A stretch of DNA of 64,000 bases from Bacteriovoracaceae bacterium (lineage in GTDB: Bacteria; Bdellovibrionota; Bacteriovoracia; Bacteriovoracales; Bacteriovoracaceae), in NCBI GenBank assembly GCA_018675575.1, contig JABGXW010000029.1:21412-85411 (forward strand), given 5' to 3'. A program made the position numbers and the translations under genes. Position 1 is the first letter of the stretch. Every line of letters starts with the position of its first letter. The notes beneath the pieces were generated by a model that was not told where the DNA came from, did not search any database, and saw nothing but the letters and a program-made list of their open reading frames with translations. Positions 8,930-27,552 of this stretch are shown here, piece after piece.

Positions 8930-8979
8930 GTGGGTAAAAATGAGCAAACAAAACAACACACTGTTTCGAATTTTTTATA

Positions 8980-10803
8980 ATGCTAATTTGGAGGTTTTTT
9001 TTGGATAAAAATAATAACATATTTTGCCTGGCCCCCTGGGTACATGCTCATGTAGATGTAGAAGGAAAGAGGGCCCTATGTGATTTCAGTGATCCTATAG
9101 AGGGTATCTGTAACAATTTATCTCTGAAAGAGTACTGGAATAGTCCTGAAATTAAAGAAAGAAGAGTCATGATGTTAAATGGTCAAGCACCAAAAGAATG
9201 TCATTCATGTTCTAAACGGAGAATTTCAACAGAACCTCATTGTGTAGAATTTAATAATCCATATAAATACCTTGTACCAACGATATTAAGAAATACCAAA
9301 GTTGACGGATCGACGTCCATGAAGCCATTCTATTATGATTATCGTTTCTCTAATATTTGCAACTTTAGTTGTAAGATGTGTTCAGCACCAAATTCTACAT
9401 TAATTGAAAATGAAACAAGAAAGTTTAATAATATAAATCCTAAACAACCTACGTTATATGAGAATAGAAAAGTTAATAATGAGAAAATATATTTACCTGA
9501 GTTTTTACAGAATATTGAAAAAGGACATGTTCAAAAAATATCCTGGGCCGGGGGAGAAACATTAATCACCCCAGAACACTGGGAGGTCATTAATAAGATA
9601 CTTAATCTTGATATGCAAAAAAAAATATGTCTATCATACAGCACTAATTTTAGTATTGAAAACTACAAAGGTACCAAAATCCTTGATATTCTCAAAGACT
9701 TTAAACATATATCTTATGAATTAAGTTTAGATGGAATTAAGGAGGTAGGTGAATTCATTAGATCCGGATTAAACTGGGAAACATTTTATACGAACTTTAA
9801 GAGTTTACCTATTCGTTCAAATCTCGACATCTCATTTGCTATTACGTTGACCATTCCTGGTATTCTCGATATCAAAAATCTCATCGATTTTCTACTAGAA
9901 GATCGACTTAAATATGTTCCTGTTTTTTGTATTGGAGATTATTCAACCGATGTCATGTCTCCCTTTATTCTTCCGAGACATCTTTATGATCAACTGCTCG
10001 ACAATTTCGAAAAGTTGGTAATAGAATACAATGACCCGTATCTTGATAATTTTATTGATTTGATCCATTCAATGAAAAATACGACAATCATTGAGGAATG
10101 TATCAATCTAGATATTAAAGATTTCATTAGTGCAAGAAAGTTTCATTCATTTAGAGAGCAATTAAATCCGCATCAAATAACATTAAATGAAATTTTCAAA
10201 ATTAAATCACCAGATATTTATAAGTGGTGGTTAAAAAGTGATGATGAACTAATAAAAAGCAGTCTTAGCCTAGTTGAATACAGACACATACTTCACAATA
10301 AAGAATGGGATGATAAACATTCTTATTCCAGCGAAACTTTTCAAGAGAAAGTAATTCTTACGACCACATTTAATTTCACGGGAAACTTAGAAACTTCCCC
10401 TAAGCTATTCTATGGTACAAACTTAATTCGTGAGATTACAGACCCTGTTGAGTATCTAAATAAATTATCAAGGCATATTAATAAAGAAGACAGAGTGTCT
10501 CTGATAGATGCTACTGGGAATATATTCAGTTCATGGCTAAATCGAAAAAACTTAAATTCTTATCAAAATAAAATTATCCTATGGCGTTTGATAAACCTTC
10601 CTGCCGATGAGTGGGATCGGAAATTCCCAAATTTAATTATTTTATCTACAAATTATCTTTCCCCGATCTCTTTCATTCTTCGAAATAAAAATGTAGACAA
10701 TAGATTAATATCTATCATTTGTAAGTTTGAATTTTTGGTTAGCTTCCTTAATCCTGTAATCTCGCTACACTTCAGAGTTCTTTTCAAAAGAAGGGACGAT
10801 TGA
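8980..10803 (+). CDS. Radical SAM enzyme with N-terminal twitch/SPASM-like module plus about 200-aa C-terminal extension of unknown function (paralogue 3)
   Basis: FCLAPW...GKRALC...ECHSC module, NICNFSCKMC triad, WAGGETL. The start is uncertain: there is no SD before ATG 8980, and an upstream ATG at 8940 is one T out of frame across a T8 tract. Confidence 0.65.
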   Translation: MLIWRFFLDKNNNIFCLAPWVHAHVDVEGKRALCDFSDPIEGICNNLSLKEYWNSPEIKERRVMMLNGQAPKECHSCSKRRISTEPHCVEFNNPYKYLVPTILRNTKVDGSTSMKPFYYDYRFSNICNFSCKMCSAPNSTLIENETRKFNNINPKQPTLYENRKVNNEKIYLPEFLQNIEKGHVQKISWAGGETLITPEHWEVINKILNLDMQKKICLSYSTNFSIENYKGTKILDILKDFKHISYELSLDGIKEVGEFIRSGLNWETFYTNFKSLPIRSNLDISFAITLTIPGILDIKNLIDFLLEDRLKYVPVFCIGDYSTDVMSPFILPRHLYDQLLDNFEKLVIEYNDPYLDNFIDLIHSMKNTTIIEECINLDIKDFISARKFHSFREQLNPHQITLNEIFKIKSPDIYKWWLKSDDELIKSSLSLVEYRHILHNKEWDDKHSYSSETFQEKVILTTTFNFTGNLETSPKLFYGTNLIREITDPVEYLNKLSRHINKEDRVSLIDATGNIFSSWLNRKNLNSYQNKIILWRLINLPADEWDRKFPNLIILSTNYLSPISFILRNKNVDNRLISIICKFEFLVSFLNPVISLHFRVLFKRRDD

Positions 10804-11871
10804 GCTGGCTGCAGTAATTAATCTTGAGAACTTACCCTCTGTAAGTAAGTCTAGCATCTTAAAATATTTTATTTGTAAATTATTTGGAAATGTTTCCACA
10901 AGTGCTCTTAATACCCGATGAGATATCAACAATTCACGTTGGGACATTTTTGAAAAATAATACTTAAGTATTTTTTTTCGTTGAGCCAGACCTAGTGTCG
11001 AGGGAGATAAATTCTCAGGGCTGTAAACATATTGAACAAATGGAAATAGATTATTTTCTTCACAGAAATTAAGCATTTCTATTATCTGGAAAGCATTTTC
11101 CCGTTGGATAGAAAAATTAATTTCCAAGTGAAAATCTTTTTCTTTTTGAAAAAGTTTAAGGTCGTCAATTGTTTTAAGTGCATTTCCCAATTTACCTGGA
11201 GCGCGAATAGATTCATAGGTCTTAGGATCTACTGTATCTAAACTAACTGATATACGGTTAATTTTAATTTTTCTCAAATGAGACTTTATTGATTCAGAAA
11301 GAGACCATTGTGCGTTTGTCGTAAAGCGCCAAGACAATGCGGGATTCGAGTCTGCTGCCAGGTTAATTATTTTATATAAATCTGGTTGCAGAAATGGTTC
11401 TCCCGCAAGAGGATCGATTTGTATTAAATTTGGAATGATATGCTTTTTTAAATGTTCCCAGAATCCATCTATTTTATCATATTCATGATTAGGCATGGCC
11501 CATATATTACAAAATGGGCATTGAAGGTTACAAAATCCGTTAATGTCTGGCGATAATCTTAATATTGGAGTTTTTACGACCTCCGAGGCGTCAATGTAGG
11601 GCAATAAATCAAGATTAGAGTGTAGCTTATTACAAGAGTTGTGATTGATATATTCTTTGCATGTTACAATATTTCCAGTTAAAAACTCCAGCCTCCAGTC
11701 ACGAAATTTTTTATTGTTCCAAATCTCTTCAATTGTATTTTCGTGAATATTCCCAAGAACATGACCAATACCCAATTCCCTACATGAGCCTACATGTCCA
11801 TTGGGATTTAGAATCAAACTTGCAAAAGGTACTGGACAAAATACCTTGGGTAGTGATTTACCATTTTTCAT
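10765..11871 (-). CDS. Radical SAM enzyme with N-terminal twitch/SPASM-like module (paralogue 4)
   Basis: FCPVPF...PNGHVGSCR...NTIEEIWN module, GFCNLQCPFC triad, GEPFLQ, TTNAQW. Its 3-prime end overlaps paralogue 3 by 39 nt (convergent). Confidence 0.7.
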   Translation of the reverse strand: MKNGKSLPKVFCPVPFASLILNPNGHVGSCRELGIGHVLGNIHENTIEEIWNNKKFRDWRLEFLTGNIVTCKEYINHNSCNKLHSNLDLLPYIDASEVVKTPILRLSPDINGFCNLQCPFCNIWAMPNHEYDKIDGFWEHLKKHIIPNLIQIDPLAGEPFLQPDLYKIINLAADSNPALSWRFTTNAQWSLSESIKSHLRKIKINRISVSLDTVDPKTYESIRAPGKLGNALKTIDDLKLFQKEKDFHLEINFSIQRENAFQIIEMLNFCEENNLFPFVQYVYSPENLSPSTLGLAQRKKILKYYFSKMSQRELLISHRVLRALVETFPNNLQIKYFKMLDLLTEGKFSRLITAASSIVPSFEKNSEV

Positions 11872-11956: not shown

Positions 11957-12247
11957 ATGACTTCATATGCCAATTCAGATATGGTTATTAAAACTGTAGA
12001 CGATATTGTTACTAGAAAAAATGATAATGGTAGTATCATACTTATGAAAATGAACGACTCAGATAATTTTTTCAAGATTGACGGCATAGCATCAATGATC
12101 TGGCGCGAATCTGTAGACAATGGTCGACAACTTGGTGAAATATTTAAGCTAGTAATTGACGGATATGAAGTTGAGGCCAGCACATTGGAAAAAGATATAG
12201 ACAAATTATTACAAGATCTCAGATCCCACAAACTCATTGTTGAATAA
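11957..12247 (+). CDS. PqqD-family protein (RiPP-recognition-element-like peptide chaperone)
   Basis: 96 aa. The pattern DNGSIILMKM..DNFFKIDGIASMIWRE..NGRQLGEIFKLVIDGYEV....LEKDIDKLLQDLRSHKLIVE follows the PqqD family profile (LN-x-x-a-x-x-iW, y-v-x-x-x-x-x-e-x-Dv-x-x-fl-x-x-L-x-x-x-x-li). Good SD (AGAGGT) 8 nt upstream. Confidence 0.65.
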   Translation: MTSYANSDMVIKTVDDIVTRKNDNGSIILMKMNDSDNFFKIDGIASMIWRESVDNGRQLGEIFKLVIDGYEVEASTLEKDIDKLLQDLRSHKLIVE

Positions 12248-13241
12248 ATCTTAAAACATGATTAAGTGTCTCCTTCTCGTTACTTCCATATATAGTATAG
12301 AACTTCGAATTACTTATTAAATTAAACGCCGCCCAGATTCTCATTAGAAATATCTTAATTTTGGTCCAAAAATCCTTAATCCCAAATTCCCAAAATAATT
12401 CTAGAACCTGAGGTGTGCCGACCCCTAAAATAAAATATAAGAATAAGTCTTGATAAATTTCTATACGTTTTGATTTACCTAAAGAGCTTGTTTTACTGTC
12501 CCTATGTAGAAAAATAATATCTTCTCGTTTTTTTTTATCTTGATTTTTATCGTAAAAAAAATCTGCCCTGAGTAAATACTTTACATCATGATTAGTGCGG
12601 ACAAAATTTGACGTATATCCTTTATCATATTTTAACAATTTATTTTGATCTTTAAATCCTAAACGAAGTGGAAAGTGGAACCTATCCTGTGCGGAAACGA
12701 GAGTTATGTCGTCTGATGAATATTTCAAATTATTCTTTGAATTTAATAAATTTAAACATAGTGTTGATTTTCCAATACCAGAAGCCCCGACAAGAATGAA
12801 GTTCTTTTTCTCATTATATACACACATGGAATGAAGTCTGTGAATTCCGTCTATATCTAACATTTTCCCAACTCTAGACAATGTGGCAAGATAGATTATT
12901 TCTCTAGTTAAAATATCATTCTTTGAAAAGATTTTAATTGCTTCACTATCGAAATTTATTTTGAGAAGAAGTTCATCGTAATAATTAATATATCTACAGT
13001 TTTTATATTCATAGAATACTTTCCCATTATATGTTTTAATATTTTGAGATTGATTGTTAAATCTTAAAAGGTCAGGTTTGTCATAAATATGATCAATTTT
13101 AACATGAACAAGATTTGGTTTTCCTCCATCCGCGAATTCAAAGCTTTTAAAGTCAAATGACACATTCTCCAGAAGGCCATTAACAGGAGAATTGATACTG
13201 ACCATTTTACCTAAAAACAAAAAAAATTTACTTGATAACAT
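12234..13241 (-). CDS. HPr-kinase-related P-loop protein (HprK C-terminal-domain-like kinase)
   Basis: The P-loop LVGASGIGKSTL sits in the context typical of the HprK/P C-terminal domain (GxSGxGKS). The N-terminal half has no recognisable motif. Convergent with the PqqD gene, overlapping it by 14 nt. Confidence 0.55.
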   Translation of the reverse strand: MLSSKFFLFLGKMVSINSPVNGLLENVSFDFKSFEFADGGKPNLVHVKIDHIYDKPDLLRFNNQSQNIKTYNGKVFYEYKNCRYINYYDELLLKINFDSEAIKIFSKNDILTREIIYLATLSRVGKMLDIDGIHRLHSMCVYNEKKNFILVGASGIGKSTLCLNLLNSKNNLKYSSDDITLVSAQDRFHFPLRLGFKDQNKLLKYDKGYTSNFVRTNHDVKYLLRADFFYDKNQDKKKREDIIFLHRDSKTSSLGKSKRIEIYQDLFLYFILGVGTPQVLELFWEFGIKDFWTKIKIFLMRIWAAFNLISNSKFYTIYGSNEKETLNHVLRFIQQ

Positions 13242-14112
13242 GGTATTTCCTAGATAAATAAATCACTATCCCGATAAAAATGGCAATCCCATATGCTATA
13301 TGAATAAGTGGAAAGGTTAAAAAGGCAAGAAAAAAACAACCTATCGACGCGGACGCTCTTGCCAAAGAAAAGGAAAATAAAAAATCTAATGTTAGATAAA
13401 TAATTATTACAGGAGCAATATCAGTTGGAAAAATTAAACCATAAATTAATAGCAAAACAAAAAGGAAAGGAAGAAGGTAAATTATCTTTTTCGGAGCAAA
13501 ATTTACAAGAACATGCTTACCACGCGAAAATGCATAATAATAAATTTTTTTTATTACTTTTATATACGATTTACCAATTGTCCTAGTTACAATTGCCTCT
13601 GGATGATACCAGACATCATTTTTATCAACTCTAGATAAAAACTCATTCTCCTCATTGGGATAGAATCCAGGCTTAAAACCATTATTCTTTAAAAAAAAAT
13701 CCTTATTTATTACCATATTACATAATATTAACTCTCTTTCAGTTGATAATCTGGGACACCCAAGAGAAGAGTATCTAGCTCGAGAACTTTGAAAGGCAAA
13801 CCAAGATTTAAAAATATATGAAAAGAAATATGAATTAAAATTTTCTGATCTTATTAAAGCGGGGCCACCAACGACATTTACCCTATTATTATTAATAAAC
13901 TCTTTGTATTTTGCTAAGATATTTTTTGATAATTCACAATCGTCATCTAGAAATAGTAACCAATCGGAATTTGCCTGCCTAGCTGCCTTATTTCTTTGTT
14001 CTGAGGGATCATTCCCCTCCATACAAATAATTTCATCAACCAGATGAATTTTTTTATTTTTTTTCAGCACAACATTTGATATATTTTTACATGCAATTAT
14101 AATCGTAAACAT
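13228..14112 (-). CDS. Family 2 glycosyltransferase with C-terminal transmembrane segments
   Basis: MFTIIIACKN start typical of GT2, PSEQRN, DxD block LFLDDDCEL, hydrophobic C-terminus. I moved the start to ATG 14112, which removes the divergent overlap with the protease gene. The ORF track extends to 14160. Confidence 0.75.
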   Translation of the reverse strand: MFTIIIACKNISNVVLKKNKKIHLVDEIICMEGNDPSEQRNKAARQANSDWLLFLDDDCELSKNILAKYKEFINNNRVNVVGGPALIRSENFNSYFFSYIFKSWFAFQSSRARYSSLGCPRLSTERELILCNMVINKDFFLKNNGFKPGFYPNEENEFLSRVDKNDVWYHPEAIVTRTIGKSYIKVIKKIYYYAFSRGKHVLVNFAPKKIIYLLPFLFVLLLIYGLIFPTDIAPVIIIYLTLDFLFSFSLARASASIGCFFLAFLTFPLIHIAYGIAIFIGIVIYLSRKYHVIK

Positions 14113-14145
14113 AGTTAAATTATATGAGATTAGGTCAATTAAGTC

Positions 14146-15603
14146 GTGATTAAAAATCATTTTTATTTATATTCTCTATGCTATATTTTTTTTTTATCAC
14201 TAACTTCTGGTTGTTTGGTAAATAATGGTTCACAGTCCCTACTTCCAGCGAAATATGACCTTAGAGAATCTAATATTATCACTCTGCCAAAGAAACAGGC
14301 ATGGGGTACCTGCTGGGCACATTCCGCGATCTCATCAATTGAAAGTAACTTTTTATCAAAGCAAAAAGATAAGTCACTAGCAGAGATAAATTTCTCAGAG
14401 TACCATATGGATAAATTTAATGGATTTAATCGTGATGGGATTAAAGGTGAAGTTCTAAATACTGAAAAAAGCGGGCAAGGAATTGATTTCATAGGTTCAA
14501 ATCTCGACGATAGGCAGTCTGGTCTACTGGTCCATCAAGGTGGTGATATGAGAATAGCTACCGCTTACATTGCAAATAATGGAGGAGTAGTTAATGAAAA
14601 AAAATCTCATTTTATTTCTAACTCCCATCAAGATCACGACGTATTCGGGAACACCTCAATTACTGGGATCAAAAGAAGAGATATGTATCGTTATTATTTT
14701 TCACGAGATATTCAATTTCTAACCTTATTTGGCACAAACAGAGAAAAAAGAATCAAAATCAAAAAGGCCATAATTAATCACGGTGCCGTTTCAAGTGGAC
14801 AGGTTCAAACTAATAAACCTTTCGGTTTCTTTAACAATATGGAGGTTCATTTTCACAATGGTAATAAAGAAATTGACCACGCAATCAGCCTCATTGGATG
14901 GAATGATCACCTAGAAGTTGATGGTCATGTTGGAGCATGGCTAGTAAAAGATAGCTTCCATCAAAGTGAAACGACTGGTAAATATATCAAATACTTTTAT
15001 ATTTTATACGATGATATTCATGTAGCAAAAAACCCATTCCACGGCGGCACATCTTTTGCTAATACTCAATTAGAAAAGTTTAATTCCATTTACACTCATT
15101 CTCTTCATGGATGGAGATACACAAGTACAAATCTAAAAATTAAAGCAGTTGCCAGTAAGTATCTAATATCGCGGGAGAAAAAGATCGCGGGAGTTGGCAT
15201 CTATTCTACTCAAGAAAATTCAAGATATGTGCTAACAATACATTCATCATCACTAGATGGTCCTATTGTTTTTACAAAAGTATCAAAAGTTAAATATCCT
15301 GGATTTCACTTTGTTTCAGCCAACTCCCTAAGCATAAAGTCTGGAATATACTTTATAAAACTGGCTCTAAAACGACCAGCCTATCCATATGATGCCTCAT
15401 CTACAGTTGATGTATTATTAAGTGAGACTACTAAAAAAATACAAGTTAACTCCTCTGCCAACAAGGGAGAAAGTTATTATTTAATTGATGGGCAATGGAA
15501 AGACTTTAGCTCGTACAAAGATAAGCATAACCTTCAAAGAAAAAACAGTCATGCTATGAAATACGATACTGCCAATATCTCAATGAATTTGTATACTCAT
15601 TAA
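14146..15603 (+). CDS. Papain-family (C1) cysteine peptidase, predicted lipoprotein
   Basis: Lipobox LTSG-C after a hydrophobic leader. Active-site Cys block QAWGTCWAHSA (papain Q...CGSCWAFS). His block DHAISLIGWND. C-terminal region of about 200 aa is beta-rich. GTG start. Confidence 0.75.
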   Translation: MIKNHFYLYSLCYIFFLSLTSGCLVNNGSQSLLPAKYDLRESNIITLPKKQAWGTCWAHSAISSIESNFLSKQKDKSLAEINFSEYHMDKFNGFNRDGIKGEVLNTEKSGQGIDFIGSNLDDRQSGLLVHQGGDMRIATAYIANNGGVVNEKKSHFISNSHQDHDVFGNTSITGIKRRDMYRYYFSRDIQFLTLFGTNREKRIKIKKAIINHGAVSSGQVQTNKPFGFFNNMEVHFHNGNKEIDHAISLIGWNDHLEVDGHVGAWLVKDSFHQSETTGKYIKYFYILYDDIHVAKNPFHGGTSFANTQLEKFNSIYTHSLHGWRYTSTNLKIKAVASKYLISREKKIAGVGIYSTQENSRYVLTIHSSSLDGPIVFTKVSKVKYPGFHFVSANSLSIKSGIYFIKLALKRPAYPYDASSTVDVLLSETTKKIQVNSSANKGESYYLIDGQWKDFSSYKDKHNLQRKNSHAMKYDTANISMNLYTH

Positions 15604-17405
15604 TCACCAAAAAAAGATTTTAATCTTTCATAGTTATCTAATACAGGATCAGAAAATGACCTATGTTTTTTGGCATCTTTATAGTGAGAATAAGCTTTAT
15701 CATAATCTTTCTTATGAAAGTAATATTCACCTAATTTATAATTATATTTGAACAAGTTTTTATTGGTTATTGCAACTAGTCTTGTTTTTTGATAGTTAAT
15801 TTTATGTCTCGTTTCGTCTTTTATAATAAACTCATCTTCTAATTTATCCACAAGATACTGAGATAAAATTGTATCATTAGTATCAATCGCAATTTTTAAC
15901 ACCGTATCCAAAGTTTCGTTATGAAATTTAAGTGGATTGTCTTTATAAAACTTCAGAAACTCTTCTTTTTGAAATTTGTCATCGCATTTATCTATAATTT
16001 CAGCATAATATTCGAACATCTTATTTTTTCTAATTTCATTAGGGTGATTTAGGTAAAAAGAGACATTATTTTTTACTTTTATATAATTTTTTTCTTTCAT
16101 GTGAGCGGTTATTAGAGAAACTCTTACGTGATAATTTTCAGGGTTTTTATTAAGTATCGCCTGTAGAATAGTAGAGTCTTTTTGCCATCTGTTGATATTA
16201 AAAATCGTCGTAAATAAAAATGTGATACCAAATGCTATTAATAGGCCATCCCTAACTTTTTTATCCCTAATTTTAAAAAGGGCCCATACCAACATGAAGC
16301 TGTAAGAAACAGAGCCAAAATACATATAACGCGACGAGGTTACACTTATTGCCTGAAAAGGAAACGGTATTAATCCAGAGAATGGTAACAAAGTAACAAT
16401 AAAAGCAAAAACTGAGAAATAATTTTTTAATATCTTCTTATTTTTTAATACTGTCGATATTTTAAAAATTCCAACAAAGAAGGTCATCCTTAGAATAAAA
16501 TCTATTGAATTTATATTATATAGTGATCGGTCCAAGAATGATTTCGCACTGCCAAACACAGTGTTAAATGGAAATAAAAAATGATTAATGTAATATGAAT
16601 AAGCATGGAAAGATAAAAAGAGTCTATTTTGTACACCTATTTCATTACTTCCAAGCTCGTGGATACTCTTCAATTGAAAAAAACTATAAGTAGCTGAAAT
16701 AGAAAGTAATACCAGAGAGAATGCAAAAACGTATTTGATTTTAATTTTATAGAGCATTAAATCAATTAAAATAATGATAATAGGCAAGGAAATTGCGTCT
16801 TGTTTAGACAAAAGTGCAAAGATTAAATACAAAACTGTATTCAATGAATAATATTTTTGATTTTTCTCTCTCCATTTTAAATGATTTAGAACACATAGAA
16901 GAGAAAAGAACAAGCTCAGCACACCTCTTAACCCAGATAGCCAAACCACTGTTTCTACATTTACTGGAAATATCAAAAAAGTACCAGCTACGAAAGCAGG
17001 TAAGTATTTCAGATCACTTATATGTTTAGTTTTAACTAGTTGTTCTAATAATTTATAAATGATTATAGAATTTAAGCTGTGAAAAATAATATTAATTAAA
17101 TGTAGAATTATTTGCTGATGCTCTAGTTTGAAGTTGCTTGTTAGGGACCAAATAAGATTGGGTATTGGTGTTTTAAAACTAGTCACTATCTGAATAATTG
17201 AAGAAAAGGTACTACCCATTAATAGAGGATTTTTAAAAATATAATGATCATCATCAAAAATAAATTTATCAAAAAAGATTGAAGGTTGATATAATAACAC
17301 TCCAACAATTAAATATATTGAAAACAGGCAAACTCTATTCATATTTATACGGGAAAAAATATCTTTGAAATTTTTAATTAGATGTATTTTATCTATATTG
17401 TCCAT
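15600..17405 (-). CDS. GT-C fold membrane glycosyltransferase, TMTC/PMT_2-like, with C-terminal TPR domain
   Basis: About 10 TM segments. The first-loop acidic motif KFIFDDDHYIFKNPLL resembles the F-x-F/Y-DD...N motif of TMTC/PMT-type O-mannosyltransferases. The C-terminal 170 aa are TPR-like (YYFHKKDYDKAYSHYKDAKK). I moved the start to ATG 17405 (MDNIDKI) to avoid overlapping the upstream pilin-like gene. Confidence 0.65.
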   Translation of the reverse strand: MDNIDKIHLIKNFKDIFSRINMNRVCLFSIYLIVGVLLYQPSIFFDKFIFDDDHYIFKNPLLMGSTFSSIIQIVTSFKTPIPNLIWSLTSNFKLEHQQIILHLINIIFHSLNSIIIYKLLEQLVKTKHISDLKYLPAFVAGTFLIFPVNVETVVWLSGLRGVLSLFFSLLCVLNHLKWREKNQKYYSLNTVLYLIFALLSKQDAISLPIIIILIDLMLYKIKIKYVFAFSLVLLSISATYSFFQLKSIHELGSNEIGVQNRLFLSFHAYSYYINHFLFPFNTVFGSAKSFLDRSLYNINSIDFILRMTFFVGIFKISTVLKNKKILKNYFSVFAFIVTLLPFSGLIPFPFQAISVTSSRYMYFGSVSYSFMLVWALFKIRDKKVRDGLLIAFGITFLFTTIFNINRWQKDSTILQAILNKNPENYHVRVSLITAHMKEKNYIKVKNNVSFYLNHPNEIRKNKMFEYYAEIIDKCDDKFQKEEFLKFYKDNPLKFHNETLDTVLKIAIDTNDTILSQYLVDKLEDEFIIKDETRHKINYQKTRLVAITNKNLFKYNYKLGEYYFHKKDYDKAYSHYKDAKKHRSFSDPVLDNYERLKSFFGD

Positions 17406-17439
17406 GGTCGTCCGTGACAAGCATAATTTTTTATTTATT

Positions 17440-19242
17440 CTAAGGTAGTAGAAAAGGGTCCGCAGCTCCACCAATTTGAGGTTTACAACAAAGGATTCTG
17501 TTTGGAATATTTGCAGAAGTGGTCCGCATCCCTCTCATCACCCCTCGTCGGCACTTCCAATACCTTAAACCATTAACATTACTTGTATAACCATATTGGT
17601 AACAACTACTATTATCAAAGTTACCCCCCTCATACTTTAGATGGATTGTGTCTGATCTGCAGTAGCTATTAGAACATACTTGCGTACAATTATTGGCAGC
17701 ATCACAACGGGTATCAAGCGCAATTTTGCTAATACAGTCCACAAGTACTCTACCGGAGACGGGTCCTGAACCAGTAGGACTCCAACTGACATTTGTTACA
17801 ACTTTATTACCAACAGGGACAGCTGAGCAAGCACCAGTATAAATTCTGCTTATATTTCCCATGGTATAATCGTTAATAACATTTTTTAGATTAGTCAAGG
17901 CCCATGAACTGTTTACGCTGGCGAGTATACTCTCTGTGATGGCCTGTTTCTGCTGATTATTAAATGTTCCAGCAAAATGATCAAAAACCCATTTTTGCGT
18001 AACTGCGTAATTAGCACTATGCCCATTACAGTTCCCGCCAACATTACAGTCAGGGATTGATCCAAAAATTCTTATTGTTCCACCAGTAGTTAAATTATTG
18101 CCAACAGTTACATTATTGCCAACGATCGCATCTGTTCCAACATTTAAAGTGGTGTCCAATGCGGTTGCGAGTGTAGCATGCAAGGTACCAGTAACATCTG
18201 TATTACCTACGATTGTTGTTGCTCCGGCTATACCAACTGTACCTGTAATAGCTGTATTGCCTACTATCCCCATAGTTCCTGTAACAGTGGTATTACCAAC
18301 AATTGCTGTAGGACCAGTTATATTAACTGGTCCTACAAAGGTAGATGGCTGGGCCCCTGCTACCCCCGTACCAACACCAAATGGACCTTCATCAATCAAC
18401 ACTGGTCCAAAAAAATTAGCCGAAGTTGGAGTTCCGGCCAAACCTACGTTCATCATACCATTGAATTGGGTAGCGATATCCCCGACAGTAGTTATTGATG
18501 GGATAGCAGGGTCGTTTGTTCGAATTGTAATATTTGTACAGAAAGGTGGAGCTGTGTAGTCACCTCCTATGGATGCACATGAAGCTGTTACAAAACTTTC
18601 TTCATCGGAGGCACACTCCAAGAGTACATTATCAGCAACCCGCCTAACCAATACCAGCTGAACTTCTTCTTCCGAAGTCATATTACCATAAGTATTAGTT
18701 GCGGTGTTACCAGCCTTTGTATAAGTAATTGTTAATGTTGCGTTTCCTTGTTGTCTATTTTCAATGACGGGTCCAACAGGATTTAAAGTAAAAGCATAAG
18801 GGGCACCCACATCCGACCAATCGTTCAATACAATACTTGTAATATCTAACCTATTTGTGATCCCAAGAAAATGCATCCCTCTACCATCGCCATTAGGTCC
18901 AGAAGTTACACTTGTCGAGGCTACCTCCGAATTAGCTGCTATGCTTCTCCAAATATCAGTCAACACCAAGTCGTCACCATCAGCTAGTGTATTTGTTCCA
19001 AATGGTACTGCTCCAACAGACCGCTTACAAGCATCGAGATCCTGTAAAGCTCCTCGAACCTTTCGGATATTTTCAAAACGCCGCTCACGCATAACGGAAT
19101 AACCTTGATTTTTCGTCATGTTATCCATCACTGACATGGTTCCCAGAGAAATAACTCCCAACATGCCAGAGGCCACGAGCACCTCAACAAGAGAAAACCC
19201 CGACTCATTGTAATACTTAGGTATGGTGAAAAAGTTTTTCAT
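17440..19242 (-). CDS. Large type IV pilin-like protein (prepilin N-methylation signal, beta-solenoid-like Gly/Thr/Val repeats, Cys-rich C-terminal region)
   Basis: The leader MKNFFTIPKYYNESG is followed by FSLVEVLVASGMLGVISLG, giving G(-1), F(+1), E(+5) and the hydrophobic alpha1 helix. aa 265-395 hold GNTxVTGT-type repeats. There are 16 Cys residues, 12 of them in aa 399-586. SD AGGA lies 8 nt before the ATG. Confidence 0.7.
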   Translation of the reverse strand: MKNFFTIPKYYNESGFSLVEVLVASGMLGVISLGTMSVMDNMTKNQGYSVMRERRFENIRKVRGALQDLDACKRSVGAVPFGTNTLADGDDLVLTDIWRSIAANSEVASTSVTSGPNGDGRGMHFLGITNRLDITSIVLNDWSDVGAPYAFTLNPVGPVIENRQQGNATLTITYTKAGNTATNTYGNMTSEEEVQLVLVRRVADNVLLECASDEESFVTASCASIGGDYTAPPFCTNITIRTNDPAIPSITTVGDIATQFNGMMNVGLAGTPTSANFFGPVLIDEGPFGVGTGVAGAQPSTFVGPVNITGPTAIVGNTTVTGTMGIVGNTAITGTVGIAGATTIVGNTDVTGTLHATLATALDTTLNVGTDAIVGNNVTVGNNLTTGGTIRIFGSIPDCNVGGNCNGHSANYAVTQKWVFDHFAGTFNNQQKQAITESILASVNSSWALTNLKNVINDYTMGNISRIYTGACSAVPVGNKVVTNVSWSPTGSGPVSGRVLVDCISKIALDTRCDAANNCTQVCSNSYCRSDTIHLKYEGGNFDNSSCYQYGYTSNVNGLRYWKCRRGVMRGMRTTSANIPNRILCCKPQIGGAADPFLLP

Positions 19243-19448
19243 TTAAAAATCCTAATGAAACTTCTAGAGAATGACATTGGTTAATTATACAGTAAGTTAT
19301 ATCTTTTTTTAAGCAAACACTTATACGTATGTAGTTTCAATAGCTTACGCAATCCTCCTTTTTTAATTAGCTAGAAATTATTGGCACTCCTATACATAAA
19401 AACATCAAAGGGATATACTTAAACGAAATAAAAATGAAGGAGAAATAT

Positions 19449-22995: not shown

Positions 22996-23057
22996 GTTGA
23001 ATTCCTTAGATCATGTCTTTTTAATATGTTAATCTAATTCAAATATTGGATTTATAC

Positions 23058-24773
23058 ATGACAAATTATAACATATTTGGGATATTTAACATACCTATAG
23101 CGCTTTGCATCCTCTCCGGTTGCATTGAGAAATCAAAAGATATCACCACTGAAATTAATCATATCTTGATTAAAGATGTTACTATGACTAGTGCTATCGA
23201 CTTTACTCATAAGCAAAGCAAATATTTTGATAAATATTTTCCAAACATATCACGTTATATGAGCTCAACAAGCTCAGCTGTGGCAGTAGCTGATGTTAAT
23301 AATGATGGCTGGCAAGACATATTTCTCACCAACGATACTGGTAAACACGCTCTGTACATTAATTTAAAGAACGGTAAATTCAAAAATCAATTTAGTATTT
23401 CTGGAATTACTACAGGCGATGTCGATAATGTCCTTAGGCCTATTTTTTTTGATTTCGATAATGATGGTCTCAAGGATCTTTTTTTAGGGACTAACAAACG
23501 TTACTACTTATATAAAAATATGAATGGAATTTTCTTTAAAGATGTCACGGCACGACTTGGACTAGCTCAAGAGAATCTCCTGATTATTGCCGCAAATGTC
23601 ATTGACTACAATAAGGATGGTTATTTAGATTTGGTTGTTTCAGGTTATTTTAAAGAAGTTGATCGCACTAAAAATTCAAGGTTTATGCCTACCACATTTA
23701 ACGGTGCTGAAAATGGGGGACCAGTTTATTTCTATAAAAATGAAGGTGGCAAGAAATTTGTAAAACAAAAAGACGCCCTCGGCATCCCTGGAGGTGGCTG
23801 GACATTAGCTATAGGTGTTTATGATCTCAATTATGATGGTTATGATGATCTTTGGTTTGCAACTGATTTTAATACAGATCGAGTCTATGAAAACGTGAAA
23901 GGTAAAAGCTTTAAAGATATTTCAAAATCTTTAGAACATAGTTTCTCCAATAATGGCATGAGTGCAGAGATTGCTGAAATTGATGATGATGGTCAACCGG
24001 TCATCTTTGTTTCACAAATTTATCAAGAAGGAATAGAAACCGATGGAAATACTCTATTTAAAAGAAATAAACAGGGACGTTATATCGATCAGGCCAAAAA
24101 AAGAGGCGTTGATAAATGTGGATGGGCCTGGGGGGCAAAATTTATCGATCTCGATAATAATTCCAAATTAGATATCATTGTCAATAATGGATATTTTTCT
24201 GGTGATCCCCAAAAAAATCTCTGGTTTAAAATTTCAACGCTTGGTTCAGCAGGAAAAGGATTTCTAGAAGATGCCAAAAATTGGCCAGACCTTAACGATG
24301 TCACATGGGGCGGTCATCAGACTAAATGTATTTTTTATAATACTGGAAAAAAATTCATAGATATCTCAAAAAATTCTCCGTTGGGTAAGAATCGAGGTGA
24401 TGGACGTTCTGTAGCAGCAATAGATTTTCGAAATAATGGTTACCAATCAATTCTTATGACTATGCAAAATGGAAAAACTTCTCTATATGAAGTTTCAAAT
24501 AAGAGAAAAGCTAATTGGATTGGCTTCACTGCAATAGGGAAAAAATCTGGAACTGATGCATTCGGCACAAAAATAAGAATTCAATTAAAAGATAGAGTTC
24601 TTGTCAGAGCAAAACATCCAACAAACGGGTTTTTAACTCAATCGGACGAACGTATACATTTTGGACTTGGGCGCAATGAAAAAATTCAAAAAGTATCTAT
24701 TACTTGGCCAAGTGGAAAGATAGTTGAATTGAAAAAATATCAATTAAATCGTTATAATATGCTTTATGAATAA
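23058..24773 (+). CDS. CRTAC1-family (FG-GAP/VCBS repeats plus ASPIC/UnbV C-terminal domain) lipoprotein
   Basis: Lipobox LSG-C. Repeated Ca-binding FG-GAP-like loops: DVNNDGWQDIF, DFDNDGLKDLF, DYNKDGYLDLV, DLNYDGYDDLW, EIDDDGQP, DLDNNSKLDII. The C-terminal block GFLTQSDERIHFGLG is typical of ASPIC/UnbV. Start set to the first ATG (the track uses TTG 23046). Confidence 0.75.
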   Translation: MTNYNIFGIFNIPIALCILSGCIEKSKDITTEINHILIKDVTMTSAIDFTHKQSKYFDKYFPNISRYMSSTSSAVAVADVNNDGWQDIFLTNDTGKHALYINLKNGKFKNQFSISGITTGDVDNVLRPIFFDFDNDGLKDLFLGTNKRYYLYKNMNGIFFKDVTARLGLAQENLLIIAANVIDYNKDGYLDLVVSGYFKEVDRTKNSRFMPTTFNGAENGGPVYFYKNEGGKKFVKQKDALGIPGGGWTLAIGVYDLNYDGYDDLWFATDFNTDRVYENVKGKSFKDISKSLEHSFSNNGMSAEIAEIDDDGQPVIFVSQIYQEGIETDGNTLFKRNKQGRYIDQAKKRGVDKCGWAWGAKFIDLDNNSKLDIIVNNGYFSGDPQKNLWFKISTLGSAGKGFLEDAKNWPDLNDVTWGGHQTKCIFYNTGKKFIDISKNSPLGKNRGDGRSVAAIDFRNNGYQSILMTMQNGKTSLYEVSNKRKANWIGFTAIGKKSGTDAFGTKIRIQLKDRVLVRAKHPTNGFLTQSDERIHFGLGRNEKIQKVSITWPSGKIVELKKYQLNRYNMLYE

Positions 24774-25608: not shown

Positions 25609-27552
25609 ATGAAACTCCCTAGTTTAGTTGAGATTGAAATTAATAGTCGTTGTAATCTCACTTGTTCATATTGCCCAAACTCTGTAGCTGATAGAATTGA
25701 AAATGGAGATATGGACCCCAAACTATTCTCCCTTATAATTAGACAACTCAAAAAATATAATTATCAAGGACAGATGGCCTTTGAGTTTTACAATGAGCCG
25801 CTTCTGTGCGTCAATTTAGAGAATTTTATTCTCGAGGCAAAGGAGTCTCTCCCATTAATAACAATAATACTCTATTCAAATGGCACAAAATTAACAAAAG
25901 AAAAATTTAATAAACTTATAGTATGTGGGGTAGATAAGTTTATTATTACAAAACATGAGGGCGTGAAGAATATTCCTTTTGAGCAATTTTTTACCAGTAT
26001 GAACGAAGAGGACAGGTCTCATGTCTCTTTTCAAAATCATACCGAAGTTTCAAAGTATAACAGAGCTGGAATATTGCCCCACCTTGGTAGTGCAGAGGAT
26101 TTACGAGAAAAACCATGTAATATTCCAAATCATATTTTAACAATTTCCGTTTTAGGAAATGTTCTCTCTTGCTTTGAAGACTTTTATCAAAAGTATGTCT
26201 TTCAAAATGTAAAAGATGCTAATGTAATAGAGACTTGGAATAGCAATCCTTATAATCAATTTAGAAATGATCTAATAGACGGTAAACGAGAAATTTACAG
26301 TACTTGTAATAAATGTAATCGTGAAGATCGAAAGTTTGAAATGAATAAAAACAAACATATGATTGACGAATTAGAAATAGAGGCCATTAAGAAGGTGTTA
26401 GATAATGGTAAACTGTTTCGCTATAAACGAGAACCAGGGGAATGTGAAAATTTTGAGAAAGAATTTTCTAATTTTCTCGGGACAAAACATACCTCGTTAG
26501 TCACCAGTGGAACAAACGCATTAGTTGCTGCACTGATTACACTTAACATCACAGAAGGTGATGAAGTTATTATTCCTTCATATACATTTGTAGCTACCGC
26601 AAGTGCTGTTCTTACGGTCGGTGCCATCCCTGTGGTAGTAAATATTGGTAATGACTTATTAATATCTTTAACAGAAATAGAAAGTGCTATCACAGAAAGA
26701 ACAAAGCTTATCATACCTGTTCACATGGATGGTCTTCAATGTGAAATTGATAAGATTTCTGTTCTTGCAAAGGAGAAAAAACTTTTTTTAGTCGAGGATG
26801 TAGCGCAAGCATTAGGTGCAAGTTATAAAGGAAAAATGTTGGGATCTTTTGGTGATCTTGGATGTTTTTCTTTTAACAGAGATAAAACAATTACTTGTGG
26901 CGAAGGTGGAGCTGTCACCACTAATAATCAGTTATACAGCGAAAGACTGCTTTTTATTACAGATAATGCTTACCAGTATAATACATTTCATAAAAACAAA
27001 TTTACAAATATTACACCTTTTTTAGGTCTCTCCATGAGAATGTCTGAGATTTCTGGCGCCATGTTAAGGATTCAGTTAAAAAAGACAAGTAATATTATCG
27101 AACAAAATAAATTACGAAAAGACATTCTTACTAACTCTTTAAAAAATTCAAAACATTATAAAGAAAAGTTTTCAATAATCAATTCCGCAGACCCCGATGG
27201 ACAATGTTATTCCACTATTCATTTGAAGTTCAACGAACCTGATACAGCAGCACTAGTATCAAAGAAGTTTTTGTCACAAAAAATATTAATTATCCCTATA
27301 ACGTTAAGATTAGCCCATTTCGTTTGGAAGTGGAATAATATATTAAAACCGGGTTCATCCTACTCCAAAAGCAGAGACCCCTATGCTGCAACAGATAAAA
27401 AATATAACTATTCTAAAATCAATTACCTTCCCTCAATCGATATTATTATGTCCACATTAAGAGGTGAAATTGATATTACAAAGACAGAAGAAGAAACAAA
27501 GCTTATGGGTATTCAAATGGTAAAAATCATTGGAGCAGTATGTGGAAATTAA
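25609..27552 (+). CDS. Fusion protein: N-terminal radical SAM/SPASM-twitch domain plus C-terminal DegT/DnrJ/EryC1/StrS-family PLP aminotransferase
   Basis: N-terminal part: SRCNLTCSYC (CxxxCxxC), then the auxiliary-cluster region CNIPNHILTISVLGNVLSC...CNKC. C-terminal part from about aa 250: TSGTNALVAAL, IIPSYTFVATA, VEDVAQALG and the PLP-Lys block FSFNRDKTITCGEGG. Confidence 0.8.
   Translation: MKLPSLVEIEINSRCNLTCSYCPNSVADRIENGDMDPKLFSLIIRQLKKYNYQGQMAFEFYNEPLLCVNLENFILEAKESLPLITIILYSNGTKLTKEKFNKLIVCGVDKFIITKHEGVKNIPFEQFFTSMNEEDRSHVSFQNHTEVSKYNRAGILPHLGSAEDLREKPCNIPNHILTISVLGNVLSCFEDFYQKYVFQNVKDANVIETWNSNPYNQFRNDLIDGKREIYSTCNKCNREDRKFEMNKNKHMIDELEIEAIKKVLDNGKLFRYKREPGECENFEKEFSNFLGTKHTSLVTSGTNALVAALITLNITEGDEVIIPSYTFVATASAVLTVGAIPVVVNIGNDLLISLTEIESAITERTKLIIPVHMDGLQCEIDKISVLAKEKKLFLVEDVAQALGASYKGKMLGSFGDLGCFSFNRDKTITCGEGGAVTTNNQLYSERLLFITDNAYQYNTFHKNKFTNITPFLGLSMRMSEISGAMLRIQLKKTSNIIEQNKLRKDILTNSLKNSKHYKEKFSIINSADPDGQCYSTIHLKFNEPDTAALVSKKFLSQKILIIPITLRLAHFVWKWNNILKPGSSYSKSRDPYAATDKKYNYSKINYLPSIDIIMSTLRGEIDITKTEEETKLMGIQMVKIIGAVCGN

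What the first reader, a model, noticed from the sequence alone, without database searches (positions are those of the whole stretch)
15600..19242. Giant type IV pilin-like protein followed by a TMTC/PMT-like GT-C glycosyltransferase (candidate pilin and cognate O-glycosyltransferase pair)
A canonical prepilin signal (leader ending in G, then FSLVE with Glu at +5 and a hydrophobic helix) is attached to a mature protein of 585 aa, about four times the size of ordinary major pilins.

The gene immediately downstream, with a 34-nt gap, encodes a multi-TM protein with a first-loop DD motif (FIFDDDHYIFKN) and C-terminal TPRs. That is the architecture of TMTC/PMT-type protein O-mannosyltransferases.

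In Pseudomonas aeruginosa, pilin-specific glycosyltransferases (TfpO/PilO, and the GT-C enzyme TfpW) are encoded directly downstream of pilA. By analogy, this pair may be a surface fibre or tip adhesin with its dedicated glycosyltransferase. The Thr-rich repeats would be acceptor sites, and the flanking sugar-modifying genes could supply the donor.
Basis: partly seen in the sequence, partly recalled or inferred. Interest (0 to 1): 0.7.

Follow-up and report, generated by a model that had tools for sequence, protein, structure and literature searches.

The report
Giant pilin with partner GT-C glycosyltransferase
A predatory-bacterium genome (Bacteriovoracaceae) encodes a 600-residue pilin-like protein next to a membrane glycosyltransferase, and related genomes keep similar pairs together, so the enzyme probably adds sugar to this likely pilus-tip adhesin.

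Summary
Gene 17440-19242 (-) encodes a 600-aa protein with a canonical prepilin signal (leader ends at G15, then FSLVE, Glu at +5). Thirty-four nt downstream, 15600-17405 (-) encodes a polytopic protein with an invariant first-loop DD motif and a helical-repeat C-terminus.

The source is a Bacteriovoracaceae MAG. Both proteins are annotated "hypothetical".

The pilin is not an orphan. It belongs to an undescribed family of roughly 550-870-aa prepilins in Bdellovibrionota. The parts are a pilin module, about 20 hexapeptide repeats, a helical neck and a variable Cys-rich head. This is a new architecture within the known "modular pilin" class.

The enzyme is a divergent TMTC/PMT_2-like GT-C. Its layout closely matches Pseudomonas TfpW, but homology to TfpW was not tested.

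Pairing is supported comparatively:
- A distant syntenic locus (L014) keeps a GT-C homologue next to its giant pilin despite an inversion.
- Two other loci (L013, L016) carry PMT_2-type GT-C genes downstream of giant pilins.
- Sugar-modifying genes recur around these pilins.

Glycosylation, prepilin processing and pilus display remain inferred. Verdict: a new variant of a known kind, of moderate interest.

The parts
19284..19312 (-). Promoter-like site (TTAAAA-17-TATAAT) about 40 nt upstream of the pilin start codon
   Evidence: Consensus scan only. No terminator-like site was found between the two genes.
17440..19242 (-). Gene for the 600-aa modular prepilin-type protein (NCBI MBT7608736.1, annotated 'hypothetical protein')
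19198..19242 (-). Class III (prepilin) leader, residues 1-15, ending in Gly15
   Evidence: Read from the sequence. G15 is invariant in family alignments A5 and A7.
18523..19197 (-). Pilin module, residues 16 to about 240. It has F+1 and E+5, a long N-terminal helix, a four-stranded sheet and the family-invariant Cys72, Cys210, Cys222 and Cys235
   Evidence: Invariant columns. AlphaFold secondary structure gives a helix at 18-67 and strands at 132-211, at low confidence.
18058..18417 (-). About 20 hexapeptide repeats, residues 276-395 (for example IVGNTT VTGTMG IVGNTA ITGTVG), probably a beta-solenoid stalk
   Evidence: Period-6 periodicity z=5.0. Weak matches to the hexapeptide proteins LpxA and LpxD. 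Periodic short strands in the AlphaFold model.
17863..18009 (-). Conserved '(A/V)TxxWV' motif and helical neck, residues 412-460
   Evidence: Alignment A5. Helices at 416-460 in the model.
17443..17829 (-). Cys-rich C-terminal head, residues 472-600 with 10 Cys. It is shared with P0198 and P0162 and varies across the wider family
17406..17439 (-). 34-nt intergenic spacer between the pilin stop codon and the GT-C start codon
15600..17405 (-). Gene for the 601-aa GT-C-type glycosyltransferase with a TPR-like tail (NCBI MBT7608735.1, annotated 'hypothetical protein')
17247..17258 (-). D50-D53 (FDDDH) in the first periplasmic loop. D51 and D52 are invariant in the family and form the putative catalytic motif
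   Evidence: Equivalent to the TMTC M1 motif and the TfpW DDx motif.
15603..16178 (-). C-terminal helical-repeat (degenerate TPR) domain, residues 410-601, predicted to be periplasmic
14146..15603 (+). Papain-family (C1) peptidase with a lectin-like domain. It is convergent with the GT-C gene, and the L014 locus has a C1 peptidase in the same position next to its GT-C
13228..14160 (-). GT2 glycosyltransferase with about 3 C-terminal TM helices. It is a candidate maker of the lipid-linked sugar donor (inferred)
25609..27552 (+). Radical-SAM/SPASM-DegT aminotransferase fusion, part of the conserved sugar-modification island
   Evidence: The same fusion is present in L014.
23046..24773 (+). FG-GAP/ASPIC repeat protein. 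This kind of protein recurs next to giant pilins in four other loci

Best explanation
The pair is a modular type IV pilin-like protein and its dedicated periplasmic GT-C glycosyltransferase. It is the Bacteriovoracaceae counterpart of Pseudomonas PilA-TfpW.

Proposed steps (all inferred unless marked as shown):
1. The 600-aa precursor inserts into the inner membrane through its class III signal. A prepilin peptidase, not encoded in this window, cuts after Gly15.
2. The pilin module (residues 16 to about 240) lets the protein join a type IV filament. It most likely sits at the tip or is a low-abundance subunit, because about 350 extra residues are attached.
3. The extra module is a hexapeptide-repeat stalk, a helical neck and a Cys-rich head. 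The head varies between paralogues and probably binds a ligand. In a predator that ligand may be on the prey surface.
4. Before assembly, the neighbouring enzyme transfers sugar from a polyprenyl-phosphate donor to the pilin. The enzyme has about 11 TM helices, a DD motif facing the periplasm and a periplasmic TPR-like domain that could hold the acceptor.
5. The surrounding island supplies an unusual sugar.

Shown here: the sequence features, membership of both families, and conserved neighbourhoods.
For: Pilin:
- Canonical leader with G, F+1 and E+5.
- A profile search found 1076 cluster representatives at E<=1e-3 and 106 at E<=1e-10. Of the best 150, 132 have the prepilin motif and the median length is 558 aa. 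By my reading of the table, about 58 match beyond profile position 250.
- Named members come from Bdellovibrionales, Bacteriovoracaceae and Bacteriovoracales MAGs, plus two MAGs labelled Epsilonproteobacteria/Campylobacterota.
- G15, C72, C210, C222 and C235 are invariant.

GT-C:
- 17 homologues were found. D51, D52, E151, K201 and Y362 are invariant.
- PMT_2 hits 4 of the 17 aligned members, best E=7e-10.
- AlphaFold gives pLDDT 78.6 and pTM 0.77. Foldseek top matches are PglB (E=3.4e-3, probability 1.0), PIG-U, STT3 and Pmt4, plus TPR proteins.
- The family shares the TMTC motifs DD, Y-x-P, R-K-D, S-K and (D/E)RYxY.
- The layout matches TfpW.

Linkage:
- The gap is 34 nt on the same strand, with no terminator between the genes and a promoter-like site only upstream of the pilin.
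- L014 is a syntenic island from a distant relative, with pilin about 24% identical. It keeps C1 peptidase, a GT-C homologue and a giant pilin side by side. There the pilin gene is divergent rather than co-directional. The homologue scores HMM E=1e-17 over profile positions 10-385 and blastp E=4e-13.
- P0198 shares the C-terminal head and has a 553-aa ORF with no Pfam hit overlapping its 3' end, followed by two GT2 genes.
- L016 runs pilin, then a 530-aa polytopic protein, then a 547-aa PMT_2 protein on one strand.
- In L013, the 599-aa ORF 70 nt downstream of the pilin is homologous to that PMT_2 protein (E=4e-23).
- L011 and L012 carry a 501-aa protein with YYDD after TM1 and a weak PMT_2 hit within 6 kb, plus UbiA and FAD_binding_4 genes.
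- DegT, GT2 and radical-SAM/SPASM genes recur.
Against: - N_methyl and TIGR02532 fall just below their cutoffs for this protein.
- The GT-C itself has no significant Pfam or NCBIfam hit and no PDB sequence hit.
- Foldseek E-values are weak and TM-scores are about 0.3.
- The window enzyme has lost otherwise conserved residues. H146 is F, the acid of (D/E)RYxY is S, RKD is LRG, and the Y-H-P segment is shortened. It could therefore have altered activity or none.
- Homologues of this GT-C in two other contexts (L003 and L004/L005) sit in unrelated neighbourhoods without pilins.
- Some giant-pilin loci have no detectable GT-C (L006/L007, L015, L009).
- No prepilin peptidase or pilus-assembly genes, and no second pilin, are present in the 64-kb window.
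- The pilin AlphaFold model is poor (pLDDT 45).
- The GT2 candidate lies in a different transcription unit.
Confidence: 0.5

Rival explanations
1. The two genes share an island but are not enzyme and substrate. The GT-C glycosylates another envelope target, such as other periplasmic or surface proteins, a polysaccharide or a lipid. The pilin-like protein simply belongs to the same surface-structure island.
For: - The first 30 kb of the window is a dense glycan or secondary-metabolite-type island. It holds five radical-SAM/SPASM genes, PqqD, GT2, DegT, a carbamoyltransferase and an ABC transporter.
- GT-C/TPR homologues elsewhere are not linked to pilins.
- TMTC and PMT enzymes act on many or specific non-pilin acceptors.
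Against: - Immediate adjacency is kept in L014 even though gene orientation changed.
- Unrelated GT-C subfamilies also sit directly downstream of giant pilins in L013 and L016. That pattern is easier to explain by a functional tie to the pilin than by island membership alone.
Confidence: 0.25
2. The large protein is not a pilus subunit. Its class III signal only anchors it in the inner membrane or routes it elsewhere, for example as a pseudopilin-like or periplasmic fibre, or as a protein released after cleavage. The C-terminal module then acts in the periplasm or cell envelope.
For: - No pilus machinery or minor-pilin genes are nearby.
- The module is bulky.
- There is a weak GspJ N-terminal match.
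- Some family members replace Glu+5 with Gln or Ile.
Against: - Glu+5 and the full hydrophobic helix are kept in this protein and in most relatives.
- Large modular pilins such as CofB, TcpB, ComZ and PilB are known to be displayed on filaments.
- One locus (L015) has a small N_methyl pilin directly downstream of a giant pilin.
Confidence: 0.15
3. The GT-C-like protein is catalytically dead or repurposed. It would serve as a TPR-bearing accessory or chaperone for the pilin rather than as a transferase.
For: It has lost H146, the acidic residue of the (D/E)RYxY motif and the D of RKD, and its TPRs are degenerate.
Against: - The DD motif, E151, K201, R360 and Y362 are retained.
- The L014 homologue keeps HP and DRY.
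- Sugar-donor genes surround the pair.
Confidence: 0.1

Closest known systems
PilA-TfpW of Pseudomonas aeruginosa group IV strains (Pa5196, PA7)
   Same: The GT-C gene lies immediately downstream of a prepilin gene. The enzymes are 601 and 646 aa, with about 11 TM helices, a DD(x) motif in the first periplasmic loop, a Y-x6-P-F motif (Y272...P279-F280 here) and a C-terminal periplasmic TPR-type domain.
   Different: - Sequence homology to TfpW could not be tested because no TfpW sequence was available.
- The distal Pro of YX6PFX7P is missing.
- The acceptor here is a 585-aa modular pilin, not a pilin of ordinary size.
- No UbiA or FAD_binding_4 (DprE1-type) family was found among the window ORFs of at least 120 aa, so no D-arabinofuranose pathway genes were detected. 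UbiA and FAD_binding_4 genes do flank giant pilins in L011 and L012, and FAD_binding_4 alone flanks them in L015.
Eukaryotic TMTC1-4 O-mannosyltransferases and the GT-C/PMT clan (Pfam PMT_2)
   Same: An N-terminal GT-C domain is followed by TPRs. DD in external loop 1 is at almost the same position (D51/D52 here, D52/D53 in TMTC1). Family-level equivalents of motifs M2, M3, M4 and M7 are present. PMT_2 hits 4 of the 17 aligned members.
   Different: The window protein itself gives no PMT_2 or DUF1736 hit. Several motif residues are lost. The donor and acceptor are unknown, and the host is bacterial.
Modular type IV pilins (S. sanguinis PilB and PilC; ETEC CofB and V. cholerae TcpB; T. thermophilus ComZ)
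   Same: A pilin module carries an extra functional module. CofB and TcpB are large tip pilins with repeat and sandwich domains. ComZ carries a beta-solenoid. More than 1,200 modular pilins of up to 860 aa have been catalogued.
   Different: - The module here (hexapeptide repeats, neck and Cys-rich head) matches no Pfam domain.
- The family appears largely confined to Bdellovibrionota.
- It often occurs as tandem paralogue arrays.
- It is embedded in glycan or radical-SAM islands.
Bdellovibrio MAT (mosaic adhesive trimer) fibres
   Same: Both are long surface fibre candidates in predatory bacteria, with an invariant base and a variable tip.
   Different: MAT proteins have a standard signal peptide and a conserved beta-rich N-terminal domain, not a prepilin signal. 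PHROGs gave no tail-fibre-annotated match for the window protein or seven relatives. This protein is therefore not a MAT family member.
TfpO/PilO and PglL O-oligosaccharyltransferases
   Same: Both are pilin-modifying polytopic enzymes. tfpO is encoded directly downstream of pilA.
   Different: TfpO and PglL are oligosaccharyltransferases with only limited sequence similarity to TfpW. From general knowledge they carry an O-antigen-ligase-type (Wzy_C) domain and transfer preassembled undecaprenyl-pyrophosphate-linked glycans. No Wzy_C hit was found here.

Membership tests
Type IV pilin / prepilin (class III signal peptide) | Short leader ending in Gly, a hydrophobic residue at +1, Glu at +5, and a hydrophobic stretch of about 20 residues | tested here: met
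   ESG|FSLVEVLVASGMLGVISLG. The hydrophobic peak is at residues 14-39.
Type IV pilin / prepilin (class III signal peptide) | Curated HMM above its cutoff (Pfam PF07963 or TIGR02532) | tested here: inconclusive
   20.2 against 21.2 bits and 16.1 against 16.3 bits. The relative in L008 passes at 22.5 bits. P0198 has a precomputed PF07963 hit.
Type IV pilin / prepilin (class III signal peptide) | Pilin fold: an N-terminal helix of about 50 residues packed on an antiparallel sheet | tested here: inconclusive
   AlphaFold secondary structure gives a helix at 18-67 and four strands at 132-211, but mean pLDDT is 45. Foldseek on this model is meaningless.
Type IV pilin / prepilin (class III signal peptide) | Cleavage and N-methylation by a prepilin peptidase, and incorporation into a filament | not testable with these tools
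   No peptidase or assembly genes are in the window. This needs experiment or the full genome.
Modular pilins | A pilin module plus an additional non-pilin module | tested here: met
   About 350 residues lie beyond the pilin module, comprising hexapeptide repeats, a neck and a Cys-rich domain.
GT-C glycosyltransferases (PMT_2/TMTC-like) | Polytopic N-terminal domain with an acidic DD/DE motif in the first extracytoplasmic loop | tested here: met
   About 11 helices cross the membrane in the AlphaFold model, and hydropathy predicts 9 TM segments. The N-terminus is positively charged. D51 and D52 are invariant in 17 sequences.
GT-C glycosyltransferases (PMT_2/TMTC-like) | Match to a curated GT-C family HMM (PF13231 PMT_2 or DUF1736) | tested here: not met
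   The window protein gets no such hit even at E<=10. Only 4 of the 17 aligned members hit PMT_2.
GT-C glycosyltransferases (PMT_2/TMTC-like) | Structural similarity to solved GT-C enzymes | tested here: inconclusive
   Foldseek top matches are PglB (E=3.4e-3, probability 1.0, TM 0.32), PIG-U, STT3 and Pmt4. Profile searches of PDB sequences found nothing in the TM domain.
GT-C glycosyltransferases (PMT_2/TMTC-like) | TMTC motifs M2-M7 (YRP, RxD, KE(T/Q)xxT, DW, PxxP, ERxxY) | tested here: inconclusive
   The family has Y(H/R)P, RKD, SK and (D/E)RYxY. The window protein keeps P80, R160, K201, R360 and Y362 but lacks the acids and H146.
GT-C glycosyltransferases (PMT_2/TMTC-like) | C-terminal TPR domain | tested here: inconclusive
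   TPR_2 scores only E=0.012. AlphaFold shows paired helices at 410-598. 15 of 17 aligned members have strong TPR hits.
TfpW-type pilin glycosyltransferases | Encoded immediately downstream of the pilin gene | tested here: met
   34-nt gap on the same strand.
TfpW-type pilin glycosyltransferases | Sequence homology to TfpW | not tested
   No TfpW sequence was available in the tools. Only architecture and motifs were compared.
TfpW-type pilin glycosyltransferases | YX6PFX7P proline motif | tested here: inconclusive
   Y272-x6-P279-F280 is present and the distal Pro is absent in the window protein. Most family members have a distal Pro at +8 to +10.
TfpW-type pilin glycosyltransferases | Linked decaprenyl-phospho-arabinose (UbiA/DprE1/DprE2) genes | tested here: not met
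   No UbiA or FAD_binding_4 hit was found among the window ORFs of at least 120 aa. Both are present in L011 and L012, and FAD_binding_4 alone in L015.
Bdellovibrio MAT fibre proteins | Standard signal peptide, a conserved beta-rich N-terminal domain of about 130 aa and a trimeric tail-fibre-like shaft | tested here: not met
   This protein has a prepilin N-terminus instead. PHROGs gave no tail-fibre-annotated hit.

The most novel reading that the evidence does not exclude
Bdellovibrionota carry a lineage-specific arsenal of glycosylated giant 'tip-fibre' pilins. Their variable Cys-rich heads are the prey-recognition elements presented by type IV pili. Each pilin subfamily is matured by its own GT-C enzyme. 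The co-conserved radical-SAM/SPASM and PqqD enzymes might also mature them, for example by forming thioether cross-links in the Cys-rich head. That would be RiPP-style chemistry applied to a 600-residue pilin.
Probability: 0.12. Interest if true: 0.8.

Novelty: new variant of a known kind. Interest (0 to 1): 0.55.

Why it matters
Type IV pili are required for prey invasion by Bdellovibrio-like predators, but what they bind is unknown. The 2024 MAT-fibre study explicitly left open how adhesion and pili interact.

This family consists of 550-870-aa prepilins with variable heads. They are often in tandem arrays and repeatedly sit next to GT-C enzymes and sugar-modification genes. That makes it a concrete candidate for a pilus-borne, glycan-decorated adhesin repertoire.

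It would also extend the PilA-TfpW type of dedicated GT-C pilin glycosylation to a distant phylum and to modular pilins. It gives bacterial TMTC-like TPR glycosyltransferases a testable protein substrate.

Tried and rejected
- PDB sequence searches. For the pilin, only weak hexapeptide-protein matches appeared. For the GT-C, the single sequence found nothing, the full-length profile hit only TPR proteins, and the TM-only profile found nothing relevant.
- AlphaFold of the pilin with a 19-sequence alignment gave pLDDT 45, and Foldseek on it was uninformative.
- The phage tail-fibre idea, suggested by the 'ATQxWV' motif and the MAT precedent, was not supported. PHROGs gave only weak hits to families of unknown function over the repeats.
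- ArnT-type (lipid A) grouping was not seen in the Foldseek list.
- Searches for the source or relatives in GTDB genomes and JGI metagenome contigs found nothing. A broader metagenome scan gave only 3 loci. Two alignments were too diverse to be back-translated.
- The 523-aa protein downstream of the L008 pilin and the 491-aa L012 protein are not homologues of the window GT-C.
- DNA of the P0198 locus could not be retrieved, so its 553-aa neighbour remains unverified.
- The word-index homology search with the family profile returned only 4 proteins.

Full report
**What is there.** Two adjacent minus-strand ORFs occupy the reported interval. ORF 17440-19242 encodes 600 aa starting MKNFFTIPKYYNESG|FSLVEVLVASGMLGVISLG. 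That is a 15-residue leader ending in Gly, with Phe at +1, Glu at +5 and a single hydrophobic segment. The curated prepilin HMMs fall just under their cutoffs: PF07963 scores 20.2 against 21.2 bits, and TIGR02532 scores 16.1 against 16.3. ORF 15600-17405 (601 aa from the ATG, which is also the NCBI model) begins 34 nt after the pilin stop codon. A promoter-like site lies upstream of the pilin only, and no terminator-like site separates the genes. Exact-sequence look-up places the window in a Bacteriovoracaceae MAG. Both proteins are annotated 'hypothetical' there (MBT7608736.1 and MBT7608735.1). An independent ENA contig reproduces the pilin-end, GT-C and peptidase arrangement at 99.7% identity.

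**The pilin-like protein.** A word-index search found one relative. An exhaustive profile search found 1076 cluster representatives at E<=1e-3 and 106 at E<=1e-10. Among the best 150, 132 carry the G-x4-E prepilin motif and the median length is 558 aa, with many at 600-870 aa. About 58 match well beyond the pilin head, by my reading of the table. Named members are MAGs of Bdellovibrionales, Bacteriovoracaceae and Bacteriovoracales, plus two MAGs labelled Epsilonproteobacteria/Campylobacterota.

Alignment shows a common plan:
- a prepilin N-terminus with invariant G15;
- a head with invariant C72, C210, C222 and C235;
- a 'KCKNITI'-type motif;
- a Gly/Asn/Thr-rich repeat region;
- a conserved '(A/V)T(R/Q)xWV' motif followed by helices;
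- a Cys-rich C-terminal domain that varies between members.

In the window protein, residues 276-395 form about 20 hexapeptide repeats. Period-6 aliphatic periodicity is z=5.0 against shuffles, which fits the weak LpxA and LpxD matches. AlphaFold was low-confidence (pLDDT 45). It still predicted a helix at 18-67, four strands at 132-211, periodic short strands and helices at 416-460. Foldseek on that model was uninformative. PHROGs gave no tail-fibre-annotated match. The window holds only this one family member and no other prepilin motif. Relatives often occur as tandem arrays.

Large pilins are a known class. Modular pilins number over 1,200 proteins in 264 architectures, reaching 860 aa. 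CofB and TcpB are tip-located, and ComZ carries a beta-solenoid (PMC8179133). Bdellovibrio MAT fibres use an ordinary signal peptide and a beta-rich base, so this protein is not a MAT.

**The GT-C protein.** It has no Pfam hit at E<=0.01, no NCBIfam hit and no PDB sequence hit of its own. At E<=10 it gives only weak TPR-type matches. Seventeen homologues at 22-28% identity are polytopic proteins, and 15 of the 17 aligned members have strong TPR hits. Four of the 17 hit PMT_2, and JGI names one 'protein O-mannosyl-transferase'. D51, D52, N59, P80, H102, E151, K201 and Y362 are invariant. AlphaFold (pLDDT 78.6, pTM 0.77) gives an all-helical protein with about 11 membrane helices and 10 paired C-terminal helices. 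Foldseek's best PDB matches are PglB (E=3.4e-3, probability 1.0), PIG-U, STT3 and Pmt4, plus TPR proteins. ArnT is not among the 50 matches listed.

The family carries counterparts of the TMTC motifs DD, Y-x-P, RxD, K and (D/E)RxxY (PMC7801869). The window protein is divergent, however. H146 is Phe, the acid of (D/E)RYxY is Ser, RKD is LRG, and the Y-H-P segment is shortened.

The architecture matches Pseudomonas TfpW. TfpW is 646 aa with 11 TM helices, a DDx motif in periplasmic loop 1, a YX6PF... motif and a periplasmic C-terminal TPR domain, and its gene is immediately downstream of pilA (bioRxiv 10.1101/2020.04.19.049825). The window protein has Y272-x6-P279-F280. Homology to TfpW itself could not be tested.

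**Is the pairing meaningful?** GT-C/TPR homologues in two other contexts (L003 and L004/L005) are not next to pilins. Seen from the pilin side, though, the association recurs:
- L014 carries P0162 (675 aa, about 24% identical, with the same type of Cys-rich C-terminus). Its island is syntenic with the window: carbamoyltransferase, ADH, radical-SAM/SPASM-DegT fusion, PqqD, SPASM/radical-SAM, C1 peptidase, a 558-aa protein, then the pilin. The 558-aa protein is a homologue of the window GT-C. The HMM E-value is 1e-17 over profile positions 10-385 and blastp gives E=4e-13. It has FIFDD, HPINLES and SDRYAY. Adjacency is kept although the pilin gene is divergent there and co-directional here.
- P0198 (662 aa, from a Bacteriovoracaceae MAG) shares the 'DTRCDAxNxCxQVC' head. 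A 553-aa ORF with no Pfam hit overlaps its 3' end, followed by two GT2 genes and a radical-SAM/SPASM gene.
- L016 runs pilin, then a 530-aa polytopic protein, then a 547-aa PMT_2 protein on one strand, followed by DegT, radical-SAM/SPASM, GFO/IDH and GT2 genes.
- L013 has a 599-aa ORF 70 nt downstream of the pilin. It is homologous to the L016 PMT_2 protein (E=4e-23). DegT, B12-radical-SAM, epimerase and dTDP-sugar isomerase genes surround it.
- L008 has a 523-aa polytopic ORF overlapping the pilin's 3' end. It is homologous to the L016 530-aa protein (E=7e-21). DegT, GFO/IDH, GT2 and a 4,6-dehydratase lie nearby.
- L011 and L012 each have three tandem giant pilins. They also carry two UbiA genes, a FAD_binding_4 gene that could correspond to DprE1 (my inference), and a 501-aa protein with YYDD after TM1 and a weak PMT_2 hit. 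L012 additionally has a GT2 gene.
- L006/L007, L009 and L015 show no GT-C by the searches I could run.

Different GT-C lineages next to the same pilin family argue for a functional tie. This parallels P. aeruginosa, where tfpO or tfpW follows pilA.

**Most likely mechanism (inferred).** The precursor is anchored by its class III signal and cleaved by a prepilin peptidase encoded elsewhere. While its periplasmic part is exposed, the GT-C enzyme transfers sugar from a polyprenyl-phosphate donor. Its DD loop and TPR-like domain both face the periplasm. The island could build the donor. Candidate genes are the GT2 with C-terminal TM helices (13228-14160), the radical-SAM/SPASM-DegT fusion, the ADH and the carbamoyltransferase. 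The glycosylated modular pilin is then presented on a type IV filament, probably at the tip, with its variable Cys-rich head acting as the adhesin. I give this 0.5.

Rival explanations:
- Shared island membership without an enzyme-substrate relation (0.25).
- The protein is not a filament subunit (0.15).
- The GT-C is inactive or acts as an accessory factor (0.1).

**Verdict.** The pilin is a new architecture within the known modular-pilin class, and the gene pair is a new variant of the PilA-TfpW theme. The added value is an apparently undescribed family, found mainly in Bdellovibrionota, with recurrent GT-C and sugar-gene neighbourhoods. That family is a concrete candidate for pilus-borne prey adhesins.

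Noticed in passing
window 5521-11871 (ORFs 5521-6567, 7784-8929, 8980-10803, 10765-11871); also L014 4598-5698: Four paralogous radical-SAM proteins have the Pfam SPASM match at the N-terminus (about residues 8-95) and the radical-SAM core after it. This is the reverse of the usual order (as in the L008 radical-SAM protein). The same order is seen in L014.
   Followed up: no
window 11957-13241: A PqqD-like protein (96 aa, E=4e-10) sits next to a P-loop protein with weak HprK-related kinase A/B matches. This is a RiPP-like or 'HPr-rel-A'-like pair inside the island. PqqD is also conserved in L014.
   Followed up: partly
window 25609-27552; L014 2339-4255: A single 647-aa protein fuses radical-SAM, SPASM and a DegT-type aminotransferase, followed by an ADH. 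The fusion is conserved in the syntenic L014 island, which suggests unusual amino-sugar chemistry.
   Followed up: partly
window 14146-15603; L014 5691-7112: A papain-family C1 peptidase lies next to the GT-C gene in both syntenic loci (the window copy also has a lectin-like domain), and the two N-terminal regions are clearly similar. It may process or bind the glycoprotein.
   Followed up: partly
L011 1943-4633 and 13118-13969; L012 1-2607 and 11047-11838; L015 7679-8848: UbiA-family prenyltransferases and a FAD_binding_4 oxidase flank tandem giant pilins. These could correspond to the UbiA/DprE1 genes of the decaprenyl-phospho-arabinose pathway, whose DprE1/DprE2 enzymes are needed for TfpW-dependent pilin modification in Pseudomonas.
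   Followed up: partly
L008 12129-13700; L016 5529-7121: A second conserved family of polytopic membrane proteins of about 525 aa has no Pfam match. It sits directly downstream of giant pilins in two loci (mutual blastp E=7e-21).
   Followed up: partly
window 23046-24773; L008 21-4430; L011 13966-16902; L012 12875-15766; P0198 locus: FG-GAP/ASPIC (UnbV) repeat proteins recur within a few kb of giant pilins in five loci.
   Followed up: no
window 1-30340 versus 30707-64000: The island is 28-34% G+C in 2-kb windows, apart from the window holding the pilin gene. It ends next to a tRNA-Pro gene (30707-30783, minus strand). Beyond that lie housekeeping genes (rph, dnaK/J, grpE, mreB) at 31-38%, mostly 34-37%, with strongly negative GC skew. 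This suggests a flexible genomic island. The pilin gene itself is relatively G+C-rich (0.388 in the 18-20 kb window).
   Followed up: partly
window 35229-41532: Three consecutive FHA-domain proteins are followed, after a gap of about 340 nt, by a T2SSF-family (TadB/C- or PilC-like) membrane protein. This may be part of a Tad or type IV filament system. No ATPase or prepilin peptidase was seen in the window.
   Followed up: no
window 1-4649 and 28562-30340: A PKS-like KR/DH protein touches the window start and may be cut off there. A carbamoyltransferase and a tryptophan-halogenase-like protein sit at the island edges. The island may also make a small molecule.
   Followed up: no
alignment A5 (for example P0047, P0056, P0062, P0067, P0093): Several family members replace the +5 Glu with Gln or Ile (for example GVSLVQVL, GVSILQVL). 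This is unusual for assembling pilins.
   Followed up: no
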